Virus record (IMG/VR): IMGVR_UViG_3300048838_001252 | Location: 18,446-82,445 of that record | Direction: 5' to 3' (one strand) | Source of the DNA: a virus | DNA: 64,000 bases | Shown: positions 46,478-59,069 of the stretch, piece after piece | How positions within the stretch are numbered: position 1 is the first letter of the stretch | How the letters are laid out: the number at the start of each line of letters is the position of its first letter | The notes under the pieces: generated by a model | Told to the model about the DNA's origin: nothing | Seen by the model: the letters and a program-made list of their open reading frames with translations, nothing else | Database searches by the model: none | Made by a program: the position numbers and the translations under genes

Positions 46478-46520
46478 CATCGAAGTTTTTAGTTAAACAT
46501 AGTTGTTAGAGTTTTGAGTT

Positions 46521-46595
46521 ATGAAAAATTTAGTGTACATAGTGCCCCAACCGCAACAACATCCACAGGATGGTGAATGGGGAAAGTACGCTTAA
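46521..46595 (+). CDS. Attenuator leader peptide 1, MKNLVYIVPQPQQHPQDGEWGKYA
   Basis: Run CCC CAA CCG CAA CAA CAT CCA CAG; lies between promoter and terminator. Confidence 0.8.
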   Translation: MKNLVYIVPQPQQHPQDGEWGKYA

Positions 46596-46622
46596 ATTTT
46601 TCGTGAAAGTTTAAGGTGAAGT

Positions 46623-46654
46623 AGACCCCATTCTGAAAAGAGTGGGGTTTTTTT
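46623..46654 (+). terminator. Attenuator terminator 1
   Basis: AGACCCCATTCT-gaaa-AGAGTGGGGTTT+T-run; left arm can pair instead with GAATGGGG at 46575-46582. Confidence 0.85.
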
Positions 46655-46703
46655 GTAACATTTTTTTCGTTCTTTCGTATAATGAGTTTTGAAATATATA
46701 AAA

Positions 46704-47135
46704 ATGAATAAGATTTGTACAAAATGTAAGAGTTCTTTGAATATTGATGAATTTCCCATTGTTAATGGAAAAACAAAAAAACGTAGTTCAATGTGTTTGA
46801 CGTGTAAAAGAGAGTATGATAGGGAATATCATAAGAAATATGCCGAAAAACGTAATGAACTAAAAAGAAAAACACAATTAAAGAATAGACTTAGAAATAG
46901 AAAGTTTATTGTTGATTATTTAAAAGAAAATCCGTGCGTTGATTGCGGGGAAAATGATTTTATTGTGCTTGAATTTGACCACAAATACGATAAAAAATTT
47001 AACCTTGCTGACGCAGCCAGACGTGGGTATTCTTTGAAAACAATAAAAAAAGAAATTGAAAAGTGTGATGTTGTTTGTGCCAATTGTCATAGACGCAGAA
47101 CAGCAAAACAATTTAATTATTATATCAGGGTGTGA
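46704..47135 (+). CDS. HNH endonuclease (zinc-binding)
   Basis: C..C, C.DCG, LEFDH, KC.VVCANCH. Confidence 0.85.
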   Translation: MNKICTKCKSSLNIDEFPIVNGKTKKRSSMCLTCKREYDREYHKKYAEKRNELKRKTQLKNRLRNRKFIVDYLKENPCVDCGENDFIVLEFDHKYDKKFNLADAARRGYSLKTIKKEIEKCDVVCANCHRRRTAKQFNYYIRV

Positions 47136-47219
47136 GCGAGAGGTTGAAGCTACTGGTCTTGGAAACCAGTGACGGCACAAAGGCGTTGTCGTCCGTGGGT
47201 TCGAACCCCACCACCCTGA
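47126..47219 (+). tRNA. tRNA-Pro(TGG) with long variable arm (atypical)
   Basis: CAGGGTG/CACCCTG-A acceptor, CTGGT-CTTGGAA-ACCAG, 7-bp variable stem. Confidence 0.7.
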
Positions 47220-47295
47220 CAAACCGCCCCAAACGGTATATAAAATTGTAATCAAGCAGTGCGCATTTAGTGCTAATTACATATTTGGGACACAT

Positions 47296-47371
47296 GGTGA
47301 TTGTAGAGGAATTGGTAGACTCACCTGACTGTGAATCAGGAATCTTGCGGGTTCAAGTCCCGTCTTTCACC
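47296..47371 (+). tRNA. tRNA-His(GTG)
   Basis: CCTGA-CTGTGAA-TCAGG, G-1, C73. Confidence 0.85.
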
Positions 47372-47400
47372 CAAATAGTGTTCATTGAAATATTGTTTTT

Positions 47401-47473
47401 CGGGATGTGGTGTAGTTGGTAACATGCGTGCTTTGGGAGCATGAGACCGTGGGTTCGAGTCCCGCCATCCCGA
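47401..47473 (+). tRNA. tRNA-Pro(TGG)
   Basis: CGGGATG/CATCCCG, CGTGC-TTTGGGA-GCATG. Confidence 0.9.
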
Positions 47474-47475
47474 CT

Positions 47476-47549
47476 GTGTTAGTGGACTGTTGGTTTGTCC
47501 GTCAAGATTGTGACTCTTGTTGACGGGGGTTCGATTCCCCTCTAACACC
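47476..47549 (+). tRNA. tRNA-His(GTG)
   Basis: GTGTTAG/CTAACAC-C, CAAGA-TTGTGAC-TCTTG. Confidence 0.8.
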
Positions 47550-47565
47550 CAAAAATACATGATAT

Positions 47566-47638
47566 TGTCTCATGGTGTAATTGGCAACACGTTTGACTCT
47601 GAATCAAAAGAGTGGGGGTTCGAAACCCTCTGAGACAA
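47566..47638 (+). tRNA. tRNA-Gln(CTG)
   Basis: TGTCTCA/TGAGACA, TTTGA-CTCTGAA-TCAAA. Confidence 0.9.
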
Positions 47639-47643
47639 CAAAT

Positions 47644-47752
47644 GGTCTTCTGGTGGAATTGGAAGACATACCCTTTAAGGGGGCGAAGGTAATAACAGGT
47701 GTTCCAATAGAACAGAATAACTTCATTGCAGGTTCGAATCCTGTGAAGACCA
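47644..47752 (+). ncRNA. tRNA-like RNA with truncated anticodon arm and large insert
   Basis: GGTCTTC/GAAGACC acceptor, normal D and T arms, CCCT-TTAA-GGGG mini hairpin. Confidence 0.55.
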
Positions 47753-47797
47753 CGAATGCCGAAATGCGGAGCAGAAATGCGCCAAATTACGGAATAT

Positions 47798-47878
47798 TAT
47801 CCTCTGGCAGAATGGTTATTGCATCGCCCTTTGAAGGCGACACCGAAAGGTTTGCAGGTTCGAGTCCTGCGGGGATAA
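47798..47878 (+). tRNA. tRNA-Gln(TTG) with variable arm (atypical)
   Basis: TATCCTC/GGGGATA, TCGCC-CTTTGAA-GGCGA, ACC-GAAA-GGT arm. Confidence 0.75.
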
Positions 47879-47924
47879 CAAAAAATTTTGAAAATTCAAT
47901 TTTTTTTCTACCTTTGTAAAAAAT

Positions 47925-47997
47925 TGACCTGTGGTGTAATTGGCAACACGTCAGATTTTGGTTCTGAAGTCTCTGAGTTCGAGTCTCAGCAGGTCAA
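47925..47997 (+). tRNA. tRNA-Gln(TTG)
   Basis: TGACCTG/CAGGTCA, TCAGA-TTTTGGT-TCTGA; TACCTTTG promoter-like site at 47909. Confidence 0.9.
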
Positions 47998-48013
47998 CTA
48001 ATTTTCTTGGAAT

Positions 48014-48241
48014 ATGGATGAATTAGAAATATTACGAAAAGAAAACGAAGATTTAAAAGACAAACTAACCGATTTGACTTTCGAATTGAATTACAATAAA
48101 CAAACGGAGTTAATTGAATTCGTTCGTGAATTATATCAATCATTAGGCAATGTTGGTAAAAATCTTACAAAAAAAGAATTGGTTGAAAATCTGAGAAACT
48201 ATATTAGAGAGTTTACAAAAAATAATAAAATACAATTATGA
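48014..48241 (+). CDS. Hypothetical coiled-coil protein
   Basis: ORF track. Confidence 0.55.
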   Translation: MDELEILRKENEDLKDKLTDLTFELNYNKQTELIEFVRELYQSLGNVGKNLTKKELVENLRNYIREFTKNNKIQL

Positions 48242-48672
48242 GTTACAATTTATTTCTTGACGATGTTCGTATGCCGAAGGATGCCTTCGAATACATGAAA
48301 CAACCAATTTATATTTCGGTTGAATGGATTGTTGTCAGGAATTATTATGCCTTCATCACACTAATTGAGAATAAGGGTGTCCCGGAAATCATATCGTTTG
48401 ACCACGACCTTGCCGATGAGCATTACGATTATCAAGAACAGTTTGGCAACAACGAAATCTACGATGTTATGACCGAAAAAACCGGATATCATTGTGCAAA
48501 GTGGCTTATTGATTACTGTATTGATAATGAAAAGGAACTTCCTGCCGAAATCATCATTCATTCAATGAATCCTGCAGGAAGTATGAACATCAAGTCATTA
48601 TTTAACACCTACATCAAAGTACATGGAAAAAAGCCAATTGATGTTTATGTATTACCTTCTTCCAGAAGATGA
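48238..48672 (+). CDS. Cyclic-phosphate-processing receiver-like domain protein
   Basis: LFLDD.R.P, ISFDHDL, TGY.CAKW, IHSMNP.G. Confidence 0.75.
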   Translation: MSYNLFLDDVRMPKDAFEYMKQPIYISVEWIVVRNYYAFITLIENKGVPEIISFDHDLADEHYDYQEQFGNNEIYDVMTEKTGYHCAKWLIDYCIDNEKELPAEIIIHSMNPAGSMNIKSLFNTYIKVHGKKPIDVYVLPSSRR

Positions 48673-52537: not shown

Positions 52538-53200
52538 ATGGCAAGAAAAGAAAAGAAGTATCATTTAATCTACAAGACCACGAATATCTTAACTGGTCGA
52601 TATTATTATGGAATGCATAGCACCGATAATCTCGATGATGGTTATTTGGGGTCAGGTAAGAGATTAAAATACTCAATTAATAAATATGGCAAGGATGTTC
52701 ATAAACGAGAAATTGTTGAATTTTGTTCAAATCGTGAATTATTGAATAACAAAGAAAAAGAAGTTATCACCCTCAATGAAATAGGAAAAAAAGATTGTAT
52801 GAATTTAATTGTTGGTGGTCAAGGTGGTGATGGTGGATTAAGCAATGTATCACCAGAAAAAATTCAAAACATTCGCAAAGGTGCATCAGATTTCATGAAC
52901 AGACTATGGAAAGACCCAAAATTTATTGAAGGTCATAAACAAAGGACAATAGAGATTTTAAAGAAAAGACATCAAAGGGGTGAGGTTAAATATGATACGT
53001 TCACAGGAAAAAAACATAGTGAGGAAACTAAGATAAAAATGAGTAATCTTAAAAGAGGAAAAGGTGTTGGTAATAATAATTCACAATTTGGTACTTGTTG
53101 GATAACAAAAAACGGTAATGATAAAAAAATAAAAAAAGAATACCTTCAAGAATATCTTTCTGAAGGTTGGATTAAGGGTAGATATGTTCGGGTCTTCTAA
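52538..53200 (+). CDS. GIY-YIG (Seg-like) homing endonuclease
   Basis: IYKTTN...YYYGMHS....DGYLGSG; GKKHSEETK; late motif at 52515. Confidence 0.85.
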   Translation: MARKEKKYHLIYKTTNILTGRYYYGMHSTDNLDDGYLGSGKRLKYSINKYGKDVHKREIVEFCSNRELLNNKEKEVITLNEIGKKDCMNLIVGGQGGDGGLSNVSPEKIQNIRKGASDFMNRLWKDPKFIEGHKQRTIEILKKRHQRGEVKYDTFTGKKHSEETKIKMSNLKRGKGVGNNNSQFGTCWITKNGNDKKIKKEYLQEYLSEGWIKGRYVRVF

Positions 53201-53876: not shown

Positions 53877-53950
53877 GCGGACGTGCCGGAACTGGCATAC
53901 GGGTTAGTCTTAGAAACTAAATTTTGTGGGTTCGATTCCCACCGTCCGTA
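53877..53950 (+). tRNA. tRNA-Leu(TAG), short variable loop
   Basis: TTAGT-CTTAGAA-ACTAA. Confidence 0.85.
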
Positions 53951-54182
53951 CAAAGATGTTAATAAATAGTGTTGAAGGGCAGTAAGAGTGGTAATACGAC
54001 AAGTCCTAAGAACCACCACCAGTTTATTAACATTGAGAGAGGCGCATGACAGACTCAAGCAGGGGTGACTGCGTAGCCTGTACCGAGTGTTCTTAAAAGT
54101 GAAGGAGTAATACCTTCAAACACATTATTTCGAACTGCAAAGGGGTAATGGTTGAACTACTAATAAGGTACTACTCTCATTT

Positions 54183-54498: not shown

Positions 54499-54571
54499 GC
54501 CCCGTTGACGTAACTGGCAACCGTATCAGGCTTAAAATCTGAGTTTCTCAGTTCGAATCTGAGGCGGGGTA
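54499..54571 (+). tRNA. tRNA-Leu(TAA), short variable loop
   Basis: TCAGG-CTTAAAA-TCTGA. Confidence 0.82.
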
Positions 54572-54662
54572 CAAATTACCGGAAATTGCCGGATAGTAAT
54601 TAAGTACATCTGATTATCAATTAATTATGATTTTATTTTTTGCCGGATATTACCGGATATAC

Positions 54663-57195: not shown

Positions 57196-57559
57196 GGGGC
57201 AGACTGGTTTTGACTTCATGTCAGACTTGGTAATGTAAGCAAGTCGTAGTTGAATCGGACTACGTTAAAAAGGTTCAAAACAACAAATGCAGAGGATATA
57301 ATGTCCATTCCAACGTCTCTTACAAGAGGCAAAAGCGTTTTTGCGAGAAATACTGAACTCGCATTTGCTGCGTAGGAACAATAAAACAGTAAAAACAACG
57401 GGTAGTCATCCTGAGTTGATTTGTTCTCAAGGATGTGGCGTTGAAAAATAGAAAACTGAAAAAATAAAATATTTTGCTGGTTTAGAAAAACCGGATAAAC
57501 TTGTAGAAAACTTATTAATCACATGAAACACAGGGGTTCGACTCCCCTCTGCTCCACCA
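57196..57559 (+). ncRNA. ssrA: tmRNA
   Basis: GGGGCAG...TTGAC 5' end, GGTTCGACTCC...CTGCTCCACCA 3' end with G3:U70, tag ORF 57289-57375 ending LAFAA. Confidence 0.92.
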
Positions 57560-58908: not shown

Positions 58909-58982
58909 GCCCGGATGACGGAACTGGCATACGTATTAGATTCAAAACCTAAGTTTTGTGGGTTCGACTCCCACTCTGGGCA
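58909..58982 (+). tRNA. tRNA-Leu(CAA), short variable loop
   Basis: TTAG(A)-TTCAAAA-(C)CTAA; body close to Leu(TAG) at 53877. Confidence 0.82.
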
Positions 58983-59069
58983 CAAATTAGTATTTATATA
59001 AAACTGCATTTTATCATGAAAGAAAAATTTAAAGTCCTGTAACGCAACTCAAATGGTGCGTTCAGGAAA

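What the first reader, a model, noticed from the sequence alone, without database searches (positions are those of the whole stretch)
47126..47878. Long-variable-arm (class II-like) tRNAs with Pro and Gln anticodons
47126-47219 has a TGG anticodon and Pro-type C1:G72/A73, but a Ser/Leu-like D loop, A37 instead of G37, and a 7-bp variable stem. 47798-47878 has a TTG anticodon and U1:A72 with a variable arm. Bacterial long arms are normally confined to Leu/Ser/Tyr/Sec. Each sits beside a normal isoacceptor, so they may be nuclease-resistant scaffolds, decoys or mistranslating tRNAs.
Basis: partly seen in the sequence, partly recalled or inferred. Interest (0 to 1): 0.72.

Follow-up and report, generated by a model that had tools for sequence, protein, structure and literature searches.

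The report
Phage proline and glutamine tRNAs with extra arm
A giant uncultured phage and its relatives carry working-looking proline and glutamine tRNAs built on the long-armed body normally reserved for serine and leucine tRNAs, apparently made by changing one anticodon letter and re-fitting the amino-acid end.

Summary
Observation confirmed. 47126-47219 is a 94-nt tRNA(UGG) with a 25-nt variable region (7-8 bp arm). 47798-47878 is an 81-nt tRNA(UUG) with a 13-nt variable hairpin. Rfam scores are 53.1 and 55.2 bits. Neither is a sequencing error: I collected 21 distinct long-arm Pro and 21 distinct long-arm Gln genes from related IMG/VR phage contigs, with compensatory changes in every helix, variable arm included.

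The decisive test left the anticodon free in the Pro gene's D-loop/anticodon-stem scaffold. Of the parsed hits, 83 read TGA and look like true tRNA-Ser (G1:C72 79/83, G2:C71 83/83, G73 77/83). The 22 that read TGG all have C1:G72 and A73. So the long-arm Pro is a tRNA-Ser(UGA) body with A36G and a switched acceptor end.

The long-arm Gln shares its acceptor stem with the ordinary tRNA-Gln(UUG) of the same phage (nearest in 14/14 loci). No matching synthetase gene was found in the complete relative.

Best reading: real isoacceptors charged correctly by host enzymes. Deliberate mistranslation and decoy roles are less likely. Why the arm is kept remains untested. Earlier notes of this scan report long-armed Asn, Ile and suppressor tRNAs in other phages. 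I found no paper describing this.

The parts
47126..47219 (+). Long-arm tRNA-Pro(UGG), 'ProL'. C1:G72, A73, 3-bp D stem, loop CUUGGAA (A37), 25-nt variable region with a 7-bp stem, canonical T arm. No CCA is encoded.
47798..47878 (+). Long-arm tRNA-Gln(UUG), 'GlnL'. U1:A72, A73, A14-A15, loop CUUUGAA. The 13-nt variable region has 1 unpaired nt, a 3-bp stem with a GAAA loop, then UU.
47401..47473 (+). Ordinary tRNA-Pro(UGG), loop UUUGGGA (G37), C1:G72, A73.
   Evidence: (64.8 bits).
47925..47997 (+). Ordinary tRNA-Gln(UUG), loop UUUUGGU (G37, U38), U1:A72, A73.
   Evidence: (64.3 bits).
47566..47638 (+). Ordinary tRNA-Gln(CUG).
   Evidence: 67.1 bits.
47297..47371 (+). tRNA-His(GUG), first copy.
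   Evidence: 51.0 bits.
47476..47549 (+). tRNA-His(GUG), second copy.
   Evidence: 40.3 bits.
46521..46595 (+). 24-codon leader ORF MKNLVYIVPQPQQHPQDGEWGKYA upstream of the array. A G+C stem plus T-run follows at about 46625-46655.
   Evidence: Read. A like peptide lies upstream of the array in 12 of 12 loci examined.
46689..47135 (+). HNH-type endonuclease-like ORF (148 aa). Its stop codon lies inside the first 10 nt of ProL. In relatives an ordinary tRNA-Pro occupies this place.
   Evidence: blastn matches to annotated phage HNH endonuclease genes. Pfam gives only a sub-threshold zinc ribbon. Relatives.
48238..48672 (+). cREC_REC (cyclic-phosphate-processing receiver) protein closing the array. 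Context only.
   Evidence: PF20274, 79.4 bits. Same position in relatives.

Best explanation
Both genes are functional phage tRNAs that read proline (CCN) and glutamine (CAA/CAG) codons. They are most likely charged with the matching amino acid by the host's ProRS and GlnRS (or the GluRS/amidotransferase route), although they are built on class-II, long-arm bodies.

Shown: ProL is a tRNA-Ser(UGA) scaffold. It has the same D loop, anticodon stem and loop context, and the same one-plus-one unpaired geometry around the variable stem with G15 and C48. Its anticodon has changed at one base (A36 to G). Its acceptor end has been rebuilt from the serine pattern (G1:C72, G2:C71, G73) to the proline pattern (C1:G72, A73).

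Shown: GlnL combines a class-II body with the acceptor stem of the same phage's ordinary tRNA-Gln(UUG). Its D arm is like that of tRNA-Leu(UAG) or tRNA-Ser(GCU), and it has A15 and U48.

Shown: all helices, the extra arm included, are held by compensatory change.

Inferred: correct charging by host enzymes.

Inferred, weaker: the arm is kept because the class-II core needs it to fold. The phage keeps structurally different isoacceptors side by side as insurance against host enzymes that cut or deplete particular tRNAs.
For: - Real and conserved: 21 distinct ProL and 14 (later 21) distinct GlnL from IMG/VR phage contigs. Covariation is shown.
- Identity switch: with the anticodon left free, the scaffold pattern gave 111 distinct stretches that my script could parse.
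  - 83 read TGA: G1:C72 79/83, G2:C71 83/83, G73 77/83, variable region 15-19 nt.
  - 22 read TGG: C1:G72 22/22, A73 22/22, G2:C71 only 6/22, variable region 25 nt.
- Within the clade:
  - Short Pro tRNAs have C1:G72 33/34 and A73 34/34. ProL has 21/21 and 21/21.
  - Short Gln tRNAs have U1:A72 30/31. GlnL has 12/14, plus one A:U and one U-G.
  - All 31 Leu tRNAs have A73, whereas GlnL has A 7, U 4, G 3.
- Acceptor stems: the GlnL 5' strand is nearest to the ordinary Gln(UUG) in 14/14 loci and identical in L004 and L009. ProL is nearest an ordinary Pro in 10/11.
- ProL meets most of the bacterial Pro identity set listed in the review PMC9976931 (passages read): A73, G72, G15:C48, G35 and G36. 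G49 is present in 18/21.
- No class-IIa synthetase core (PF00587) and no Glu/Gln synthetase (PF00749) was found in the window's record or three relatives, one of them 100% complete. Host enzymes must therefore do the charging.
- A Pro/Gln/His leader peptide precedes the array in 12/12 loci. This ties the array to decoding of those codons.
- The clade encodes a CCA-adding-type enzyme and RNA ligases.
Against: - No charging, expression or modification data exist. No RNA run was listed.
- ProL has A37 in 21/21. G37 is in the bacterial Pro identity set of PMC9976931. From my own knowledge, m1G37 guards the reading frame at CCN codons.
- ProRS is a class-II enzyme that approaches from the variable-region side (general statement in PMC3923123). 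A 25-nt arm could clash with it.
- The long arm is the main serine determinant and SerRS ignores the anticodon. Yeast tRNA-Ser(UGG) stays serylated (PMC9976931). Partial serylation therefore cannot be excluded, above all for the 6 ProL that have G2:C71.
- GlnL lacks G3:C70 (0/14) and U38 (0/14), and has G73 in only 3/14. All three are E. coli Gln elements. It does carry A15:U48, and half carry A73, which are E. coli Leu elements.
- The identity rules used come from model bacteria, not from the unknown host.
Confidence: 0.6

Rival explanations
1. Mistranslating or dual-identity tRNAs. SerRS (for ProL) and LeuRS or SerRS (for GlnL) still charge them through the long arm. Serine then enters at Pro codons and leucine or serine at Gln codons, as with nematode nev-tRNAs or bacterial allo-tRNAs.
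For: - The body is class II, and ProL derives from tRNA-Ser(UGA).
- SerRS and LeuRS do not read the anticodon, and the long arm is the chief Ser determinant (PMC9976931 passages).
- nev-tRNAs are charged only with leucine (PMC3333845 abstract).
- GlnL has A15:U48, and A73 in 7/14.
- 6/22 ProL keep G2:C71.
Against: - On the same scaffold, G73 is 77/83 in TGA tRNAs but 0/22 in ProL. G1:C72 is 79/83 against 0/22.
- C1:G72 and A73 never vary in ProL, while pairs 2-7 of the acceptor stem all show compensatory change.
- The GlnL discriminator is U or G in 7/14, whereas all 31 Leu tRNAs of the clade have A73.
- The GlnL acceptor stem tracks the ordinary Gln(UUG).
- A family held in more than 20 phages next to correct isoacceptors would impose a lasting proteome cost.
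Confidence: 0.15
2. They do not work in translation. They are decoys or sponges for host tRNA-cutting defence enzymes, or regulatory tRNA-like RNAs.
For: - Phage tRNAs are proposed or shown to counter tRNA-targeting defences: PMC10264068 (abstract), PMC11555353 (passages) and PMC13096335.
- Repair-type genes lie in the clade.
- The tip of the ProL arm is unusually conserved.
Against: - A decoy needs no intact acceptor identity, U33, G18-G19, T-loop, 7/5 stems or a fixed anticodon. All of these are conserved.
- The array is gated by a leader peptide made of the very codons these tRNAs read.
Confidence: 0.1
3. The extra arm is a second recognition handle, a 'decoy anticodon' as suggested by earlier notes of this scan for other phage tRNAs. 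It would help ProRS accept a serine-type body.
For: The 7-nt loop of the ProL arm carries NGG at its centre in 18 of 21 sequences (AAAGGCG, AAAGGUA, AAGGGUA, AAAGGUG). One G is invariant in 21/21.
Against: - The true anticodon already carries G35 and G36.
- The arm's loop has A where an anticodon loop has U33.
- Three ProL have other loops (ACAGUAG, CUGUU).
- GlnL loops (GAAA, GUAA, GAGA, CAAC and others) show no UUG or CUG mimic.
Confidence: 0.08
4. Decaying duplicates, or sequencing or assembly artefacts.
For: The arrays hold many redundant copies and some degenerate tRNA-like pieces, for example 47644-47752.
Against: There are 21 plus 21 distinct orthologues from independent metagenomes, with compensatory changes in all helices and an invariant anticodon.
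Confidence: 0.02

Closest known systems
[quoted passage not shown]
   Same: Class-II, long-arm tRNAs that derive from a class-II ancestor and carry anticodons of amino acids other than Leu or Ser. They sit in a genome that also has the ordinary isoacceptors.
   Different: nev-tRNAs keep the donor's (leucine) determinants and are charged only with leucine. Here the acceptor-end determinants match the anticodon (C1:G72/A73 for Pro, weak 1:72 pair for Gln). The setting is phage, not eukaryote.
allo-tRNAs (Mukai et al., PMC5389517, passages read)
   Same: Bacterial and phage-borne long-arm tRNAs with many non-serine anticodons, found in tRNA gene clusters.
   Different: allo-tRNAs are defined by an 8/4 or 9/3 acceptor/T-stem split, mostly have G73 or U73, and are taken to be serine acceptors. 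ProL and GlnL have the canonical 7/5 split supported by covariation. ProL has A73.
Alloacceptor anticodon shifts / tRNA remoulding (PMC3923123 passages; PMC4783518 search listing only)
   Same: A duplicated tRNA gene changes identity through an anticodon substitution. Covarying changes follow at positions 72/73 and near position 37.
   Different: The described cases are mainly eukaryotic nuclear or mitochondrial. PMC3923123 reports few shifts in its bacterial set and only one involving Ser/Sec. A class-II body turned into a class-I amino acid's tRNA with the arm kept, and lengthened from 15-19 to 25 nt, was not in the papers I searched.
Engineered tRNA-Ser with a proline anticodon (UGG) used to force mistranslation in yeast (statement in PMC9976931; PMC6827378 search listing only)
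   Same: The same starting body and the same anticodon as ProL.
   Different: The engineered tRNA keeps serine identity. The natural phage one has lost G73, G1:C72 and mostly G2:C71.
Phage tRNAs that escape tRNA-targeting defences (PMC10264068 abstract; PMC11555353 and PMC13096335 passages)
   Same: Redundant phage isoacceptors with altered loops. Homing endonuclease genes are embedded in tRNA arrays. One defence (Septu) cuts a tRNA variable loop.
   Different: The published escapes rest on anticodon-loop changes or on overproduction, not on giving a class-I isoacceptor a class-II body. No nuclease is linked to this clade.

Membership tests
tRNA (Rfam RF00005) | Cloverleaf with 7-bp acceptor and 5-bp T stem, and the conserved U8, A14, G18-G19, U33 and T-loop. 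| tested here: met
   53.1 and 55.2 bits against a gathering score of 29. These positions are invariant in the alignments. All stems covary.
Class-II (long variable arm) tRNA architecture | Variable region of more than 10 nt that forms a stem-loop, with a 3-bp D stem. | tested here: met
   ProL has a 25-nt region with a 7-8 bp stem, and 5 of 8 pairs show compensatory change. GlnL has a 13-16 nt region with a 3-4 bp hairpin in 14/14. The D stem is 3 bp plus G13 opposite U or A.
Bacterial tRNA-Pro identity set (PMC9976931, Table) | A73 and G72. | tested here: met
   21/21 and 22/22.
Bacterial tRNA-Pro identity set (PMC9976931, Table) | G35, G36, G15:C48. | tested here: met
   Invariant columns. 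The anticodon arm was fixed by the search pattern in part of the set, but it is also invariant in the 4 synteny-found and 11 arm-motif-found genes.
Bacterial tRNA-Pro identity set (PMC9976931, Table) | G37. | tested here: not met
   A37 in 21/21 ProL. The ordinary short Pro tRNAs have G37 in 24/32.
Bacterial tRNA-Ser identity | Long variable arm. | tested here: met
Bacterial tRNA-Ser identity | G73 with G1:C72 and G2:C71 in the acceptor stem. | tested here: not met
   ProL has G73 0/22, G1:C72 0/22 and G2:C71 6/22. Same-scaffold tRNA-Ser(UGA) has 77/83, 79/83 and 83/83.
Bacterial tRNA-Gln identity set (PMC9976931, Table; E. coli) | Weak U1:A72 pair, G2:C71, G10, U35, G36, A37. | tested here: met
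   U1:A72 12/14 (others A:U and U-G), G2:C71 12/14, G10 14/14, loop CUUUGAA 14/14.
Bacterial tRNA-Gln identity set (PMC9976931, Table; E. coli) | G73, G3:C70, U38. | tested here: not met
   G73 3/14, G3:C70 0/14, A38 14/14. The clade's ordinary Gln tRNAs also mostly have A73 (25/31), so the host's rule probably differs from that of E. coli.
Bacterial tRNA-Leu identity (E. coli) | Discriminator A73, which is crucial, plus A15:U48. | tested here: not met
   GlnL has A15 and U48 throughout, but A73 in only 7/14. All 31 Leu tRNAs of the clade have A73.
allo-tRNA | 8/4 or 9/3 split of the 12-bp acceptor branch. | tested here: not met
   7-bp acceptor and 5-bp T stems with 100% of cells paired.
nev-tRNA-like misacylating class-II tRNA | Keeps the donor synthetase's determinants and is charged against its anticodon. 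| not testable with these tools
   The sequence determinants argue against it. Charging itself needs an assay.

The most novel reading that the evidence does not exclude
This phage clade runs a parallel set of class-II-bodied tRNAs for class-I amino acids: Pro and Gln here, plus Glu, Val, Trp, Cys, Thr and Met in the complete relative. The extra arm is itself the selected device. It would make the phage's own isoacceptors unrecognisable to host enzymes that bind or cut the variable-loop/elbow side of ordinary tRNAs, or mark them for a phage factor that reads the conserved tip of the arm. Host synthetases would still load the right amino acid.
Probability: 0.22. Interest if true: 0.8.

Novelty: new variant of a known kind. 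Interest (0 to 1): 0.6.

Why it matters
Textbook bacterial tRNA biology confines the long variable arm to Leu, Ser, Tyr and Sec. The natural exceptions in print (nev-tRNAs, allo-tRNAs) are thought to mischarge.

Here a natural, widely conserved family appears to have crossed from serine to proline identity while keeping, and lengthening, the arm. That gives a ready-made test of three questions:
- How much of tRNA identity sits at the two ends of the molecule.
- Whether a class-II synthetase such as ProRS tolerates a long arm.
- Whether tRNA-Pro can work without G37.

It also offers natural scaffolds for orthogonal tRNA design. If the arm proves protective, it would add a new kind of phage counter-measure to tRNA-directed immunity.

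Tried and rejected
- A fixed-spacing pattern across the ProL anticodon arm and T loop found nothing in viral contigs. The spacing was too rigid, so I replaced it with the patterns.
- The 17-mer from the arm's tip gave 21 stretches. Only 11 were tRNAs and 10 were chance or coding matches.
- blastn of window 46500-48100 against GenBank phages gave 18 records. None overlapped ProL or GlnL.
- No RNA holder was listed for the stretch and only small DNA shares were found. I did not lay reads, so nothing can be said on expression.
- No PF00587 or PF00749 synthetase and no RtcB was found in four records.
- The 'decoy anticodon in the arm' lead is not supported for GlnL and is ambiguous for ProL.
- The 109-nt tRNA-like element at 47644-47752 has no counterpart in the same gap of 5 relatives. 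It has no blastn match at E <= 1e-3 in any fetched locus. It does not fold as a cloverleaf.
- Nearest-body ranking inside the complete relative was clear for ProL (Ser(UGA) first). For GlnL it was not: first came a 73-nt tRNA(CUA).
- tRNAscan-SE isotype models were not available.
- Literature searches found no description of long-arm Pro or Gln tRNAs in phages or bacteria. The library lacks most subscription journals, and supplements were closed.
Full report
**Setting.** The window is bases 18446-82445 of an 82,445-bp IMG/VR virus record that CheckV rates 27% complete. G+C is about 33%. It encodes a tail sheath, major head protein, portal, large terminase and a helicase. It is therefore a fragment of a large tailed phage. 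ARAGORN finds 26 tRNA genes and a tmRNA.

**The array.** The two genes in question lie in a first array at 47126-47998. Its order is:
- long Pro(UGG);
- His;
- Pro(UGG);
- His;
- Gln(CUG);
- a 109-nt tRNA-like piece;
- long Gln(UUG);
- Gln(UUG).

- Rfam scores 47126-47219 at 53.1 bits and 47798-47878 at 55.2 bits (gathering score 29). The extra bases are placed in the variable region.
- The Pro gene (ProL) has C1:G72, A73 and a 3-bp D stem. Its loop is CUUGGAA. Its 7-bp variable stem has one unpaired base on each side.
- The Gln gene (GlnL) has U1:A72, A73 and loop CUUUGAA. Its variable region is a 3-bp stem with a GAAA loop, followed by UU.
- Each folds as a five-arm cloverleaf, though the z-scores are modest.

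**Conservation.**
- Using the neighbouring cREC-domain protein as a handle, I fetched 31 related viral loci. Six of them (L003, L004, L006, L007, L009, L010) carry the same Pro-His-Gln array. GlnL is in 6 of 6 and ProL in 3 of 6.
- A 17-mer from the tip of ProL's arm found 21 stretches. Eleven were long-arm Pro genes and 10 were chance or coding matches.
- A pattern over the D loop and anticodon arm found 21 stretches, all of them long-arm Pro genes.
- The same pattern in 185,579 species' genomes found only two contigs. One has the same length as, and the matched stretch and its flanks letter for letter the same as, a 362,763-bp IMG/VR phage contig, although it is filed under a Paceibacterota MAG. 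The other is a 5.8-kb contig filed under an Anaerolinea MAG that carries the same phage-type array.
- In all there are 21 distinct ProL and 14 distinct GlnL. Seven more GlnL came later.

**Covariation.**

| Measure | ProL | GlnL |
|---|---|---|
| Distinct sequences | 21 | 14 |
| Cells that pair | 97.8% | 97.7% |
| Pairs changed on both sides | 17 of 28 | 15 of 22 |
| Shuffles reaching the observed values | 0 of 500 | 0 of 500 on four of five measures (7 of 500 on pair types) |

- In ProL, 5 of the 8 variable-stem pairs show changes on both sides. Slid-partner controls pair in only 36-49% of cells.
- In GlnL, all five anticodon-stem pairs show changes on both sides.
- All 14 GlnL variable regions fold to a 3-4 bp hairpin with one base before it and UU after it.
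- Caveat: the ProL anticodon arm and part of its D loop were fixed by my search patterns in part of the set. They are, however, also invariant in the genes found by synteny or by the arm motif alone.

**What ProL is.** I left the anticodon free in the scaffold pattern and scanned viral contigs. Together with loci held earlier, my script could parse 111 distinct stretches.

| Anticodon | n | 1:72 | G2:C71 | Discriminator | Variable region |
|---|---|---|---|---|---|
| TGA (ordinary tRNA-Ser) | 83 | G:C 79/83 | 83/83 | G 77/83 | 15-19 nt |
| TGG (ProL) | 22 | C:G 22/22 | 6/22 | A 22/22 | 25 nt |

- The rest were CCA 2, AGA 1, GAG 1, CTA 1 and GCA 1.
- So ProL is the common phage tRNA-Ser(UGA) body with one anticodon change (loop CUUGAAA to CUUGGAA) and a completely re-fitted acceptor end.
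- Its A37 is then a relic of the serine ancestor.
- In the complete relative, the nearest tRNA to ProL's D and anticodon arms is tRNA-Ser(UGA). That Ser tRNA shows the same one-plus-one geometry around the arm.

**What GlnL is.**
- Its acceptor 5' strand is closest to the ordinary tRNA-Gln(UUG) of the same locus in 14 of 14 loci, with one tie, and is identical in L004 and L009.
- Its body is class II. The minor type (L006, L007, L066) shares its D arm, loop context and arm layout with tRNA-Leu(UAG) of the same phages. The loops CUUAGAA and CUUUGAA differ by one base.
- With the anticodon free, the main type's D arm recurs in tRNA-Ser(GCU)-like genes and in one long-arm gene with a Lys anticodon.
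- Leucine identity is unlikely. All 31 Leu tRNAs of the clade have A73, whereas GlnL has A 7, U 4, G 3.
- The 1:72 pair is always weak, as in the clade's ordinary Gln tRNAs (U:A 30/31).

**Who charges them, and are they used?**
- No class-IIa synthetase core and no Glu/Gln synthetase is encoded in the window's record or in three relatives, one of them 100% complete. Host enzymes must act.
- A leader peptide with the core PQPQQHP lies upstream of the array in 12 of 12 loci. In the window it is followed by a stem and a T-run. This agrees with earlier notes of this scan on a leader-peptide attenuator, and it ties the array to decoding of exactly these codons.
- The complete relative also encodes a CCA-adding-type enzyme, RNA ligase family proteins and the cREC protein next to the array.

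**Wider pattern.** The complete 362,763-bp relative has 55 tRNA genes.
- Long forms exist for Pro, Gln, Glu, Val, Trp, Cys, Thr and Met.
- Short forms exist for Leu(UAG, CAG, UAA).
- The long Cys and Trp forms carry U73 and G73, which are the discriminators listed for those amino acids. U73 for Cys is recalled. G73 for Trp is in PMC9976931.
- Among 302 distinct tRNA sequences from clade loci, genes of 82 nt or more occur for Pro 21, Gln 14, Val 4, Glu 3, Trp 2, Asp 2, and Cys, Thr and Met 1 each.
- Each phage also keeps isoacceptors with different anticodon loops:

| tRNA | Commonest loop | Count |
|---|---|---|
| ProL | CUUGGAA | 20/21 |
| Short Pro | UUUGGGA | 24/32 |
| GlnL | CUUUGAA | 14/14 |
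| Short Gln(UUG) | UUUUGGU | 10/19 |

**Function of the arm.** This is not settled.
- The simplest view is that a class-II core needs its arm to fold, so the arm is kept after the identity switch.
- Two things ask for more. The arm is longer than in the serine relatives. And its tip is strongly conserved: the 17-mer is identical in all 4 genes found by synteny, and one loop G is invariant in 21/21.
- Published work shows phage tRNAs countering tRNA-directed defences, and one defence that cuts a tRNA variable loop (PMC10264068 abstract; PMC11555353 and PMC13096335 passages). This makes an escape role plausible, but it is untested here.

**Known relatives and novelty.**
- The nearest things in print are nev-tRNAs (charged against their anticodon), allo-tRNAs (8/4 or 9/3 stems, serine-type) and alloacceptor remoulding.
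- None of my six literature searches found long-arm Pro or Gln tRNAs in phages or bacteria.
- Earlier notes of this scan report long-arm Asn, Ile and suppressor tRNAs in other phages. The design seems recurrent in phages.

**Verdict.** The tRNA genes are real and conserved, and they are most likely charged with the matching amino acid. This is a new variant of known tRNA remoulding. Interest is moderate to high, and charging assays are needed.

Noticed in passing
window 47644-47752 (+): A 109-nt tRNA-like piece between Gln(CUG) and GlnL. The acceptor stem and T arm are intact (Rfam 32.4 bits), the anticodon arm is degenerate, and about 45 nt are inserted. ARAGORN misses it. No counterpart lies in the same gap of 5 relatives, and there is no blastn match in any fetched locus. 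It is probably a decayed or rearranged copy.
   Followed up: partly
window 46689-47135 (+): An HNH-type endonuclease-like ORF ends inside the first 10 nt of ProL. In relatives an ordinary tRNA-Pro sits 2-7 nt upstream of ProL instead. A SegE/GIY-YIG-like ORF (52538-53200) lies in the second array. Homing endonucleases in tRNA arrays have been linked to amplification of tRNA genes (PMC13096335).
   Followed up: partly
window 53877-53951, 54499-54572, 58909-58983 (+): tRNA-Leu(UAG), (UAA) and (CAA) of only 74-75 nt, without a long arm, all with A73. This is the reverse oddity to the long-arm Pro and Gln. Thirteen such short Leu genes occur in the clade loci.
   Followed up: partly
L068-L070 (G001:195000-240000): The complete 362,763-bp relative has 55 tRNA genes. 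Long-arm forms exist for Glu(UUC) 84 nt, Val(UAC) 89, Trp(CCA) 84, Cys(GCA) 82, Thr(UGU) 88 and Met(CAU) 88. It also has a 73-nt tRNA(CUA) amber-suppressor-like gene and an 81-nt gene with a 4-base 'taag' anticodon call.
   Followed up: partly
L069 11840-11910: A 71-nt gene that ARAGORN calls Ser(tga) has C1:G72 and A73 and no long arm. This is a proline-type end on a serine anticodon, the mirror image of ProL. The anticodon call may be wrong.
   Followed up: no
L090 (IMGVR_UViG_3300018939_000022) and L181 (IMGVR_UViG_3300031885_000006): L090 holds a serine-type long-arm tRNA (G1:C72, G2:C71, G73) with the leucine anticodon GAG. That makes it a better candidate for real mistranslation than ProL. 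L181 holds a long-arm tRNA with the lysine anticodon UUU on the GlnL-type D arm.
   Followed up: no
L009 9179-9266; L064 6440-6527 (-): An 88-nt long-arm tRNA-like gene directly after GlnL. It has an encoded CCA, a 5-bp variable stem and an odd anticodon loop (ARAGORN: 2-base anticodon 'tt').
   Followed up: no
L003 8020-8095, L007 7640-7715, L043 5714-5789: A third type of tRNA-Pro(UGG): 76 nt, short variable loop, A37, loop CUUGGAA or similar. Some phages therefore carry three different Pro(UGG) designs.
   Followed up: no
window 47925-47997 and relatives: The 'ordinary' tRNA-Gln(UUG) has G37 and U38 (loop UUUUGGU) in 10 of 19 distinct sequences. The long-arm copy has A37 and A38.
   Followed up: partly
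L066, L067 (GTDB genome contigs): Two contigs filed under bacterial MAGs (Anaerolinea; Candidatus Paceibacterota) carry this phage clade's tRNA array. One has the same length as, and the matched stretch and its flanks identical to, a 362,763-bp IMG/VR phage contig. They look like mis-binned phage DNA.
   Followed up: partly
window 57196-57559 (+): A phage-borne tmRNA (Rfam 107 bits) with an unusually long 28-residue tag. The tag is conserved in relatives.
   Followed up: no
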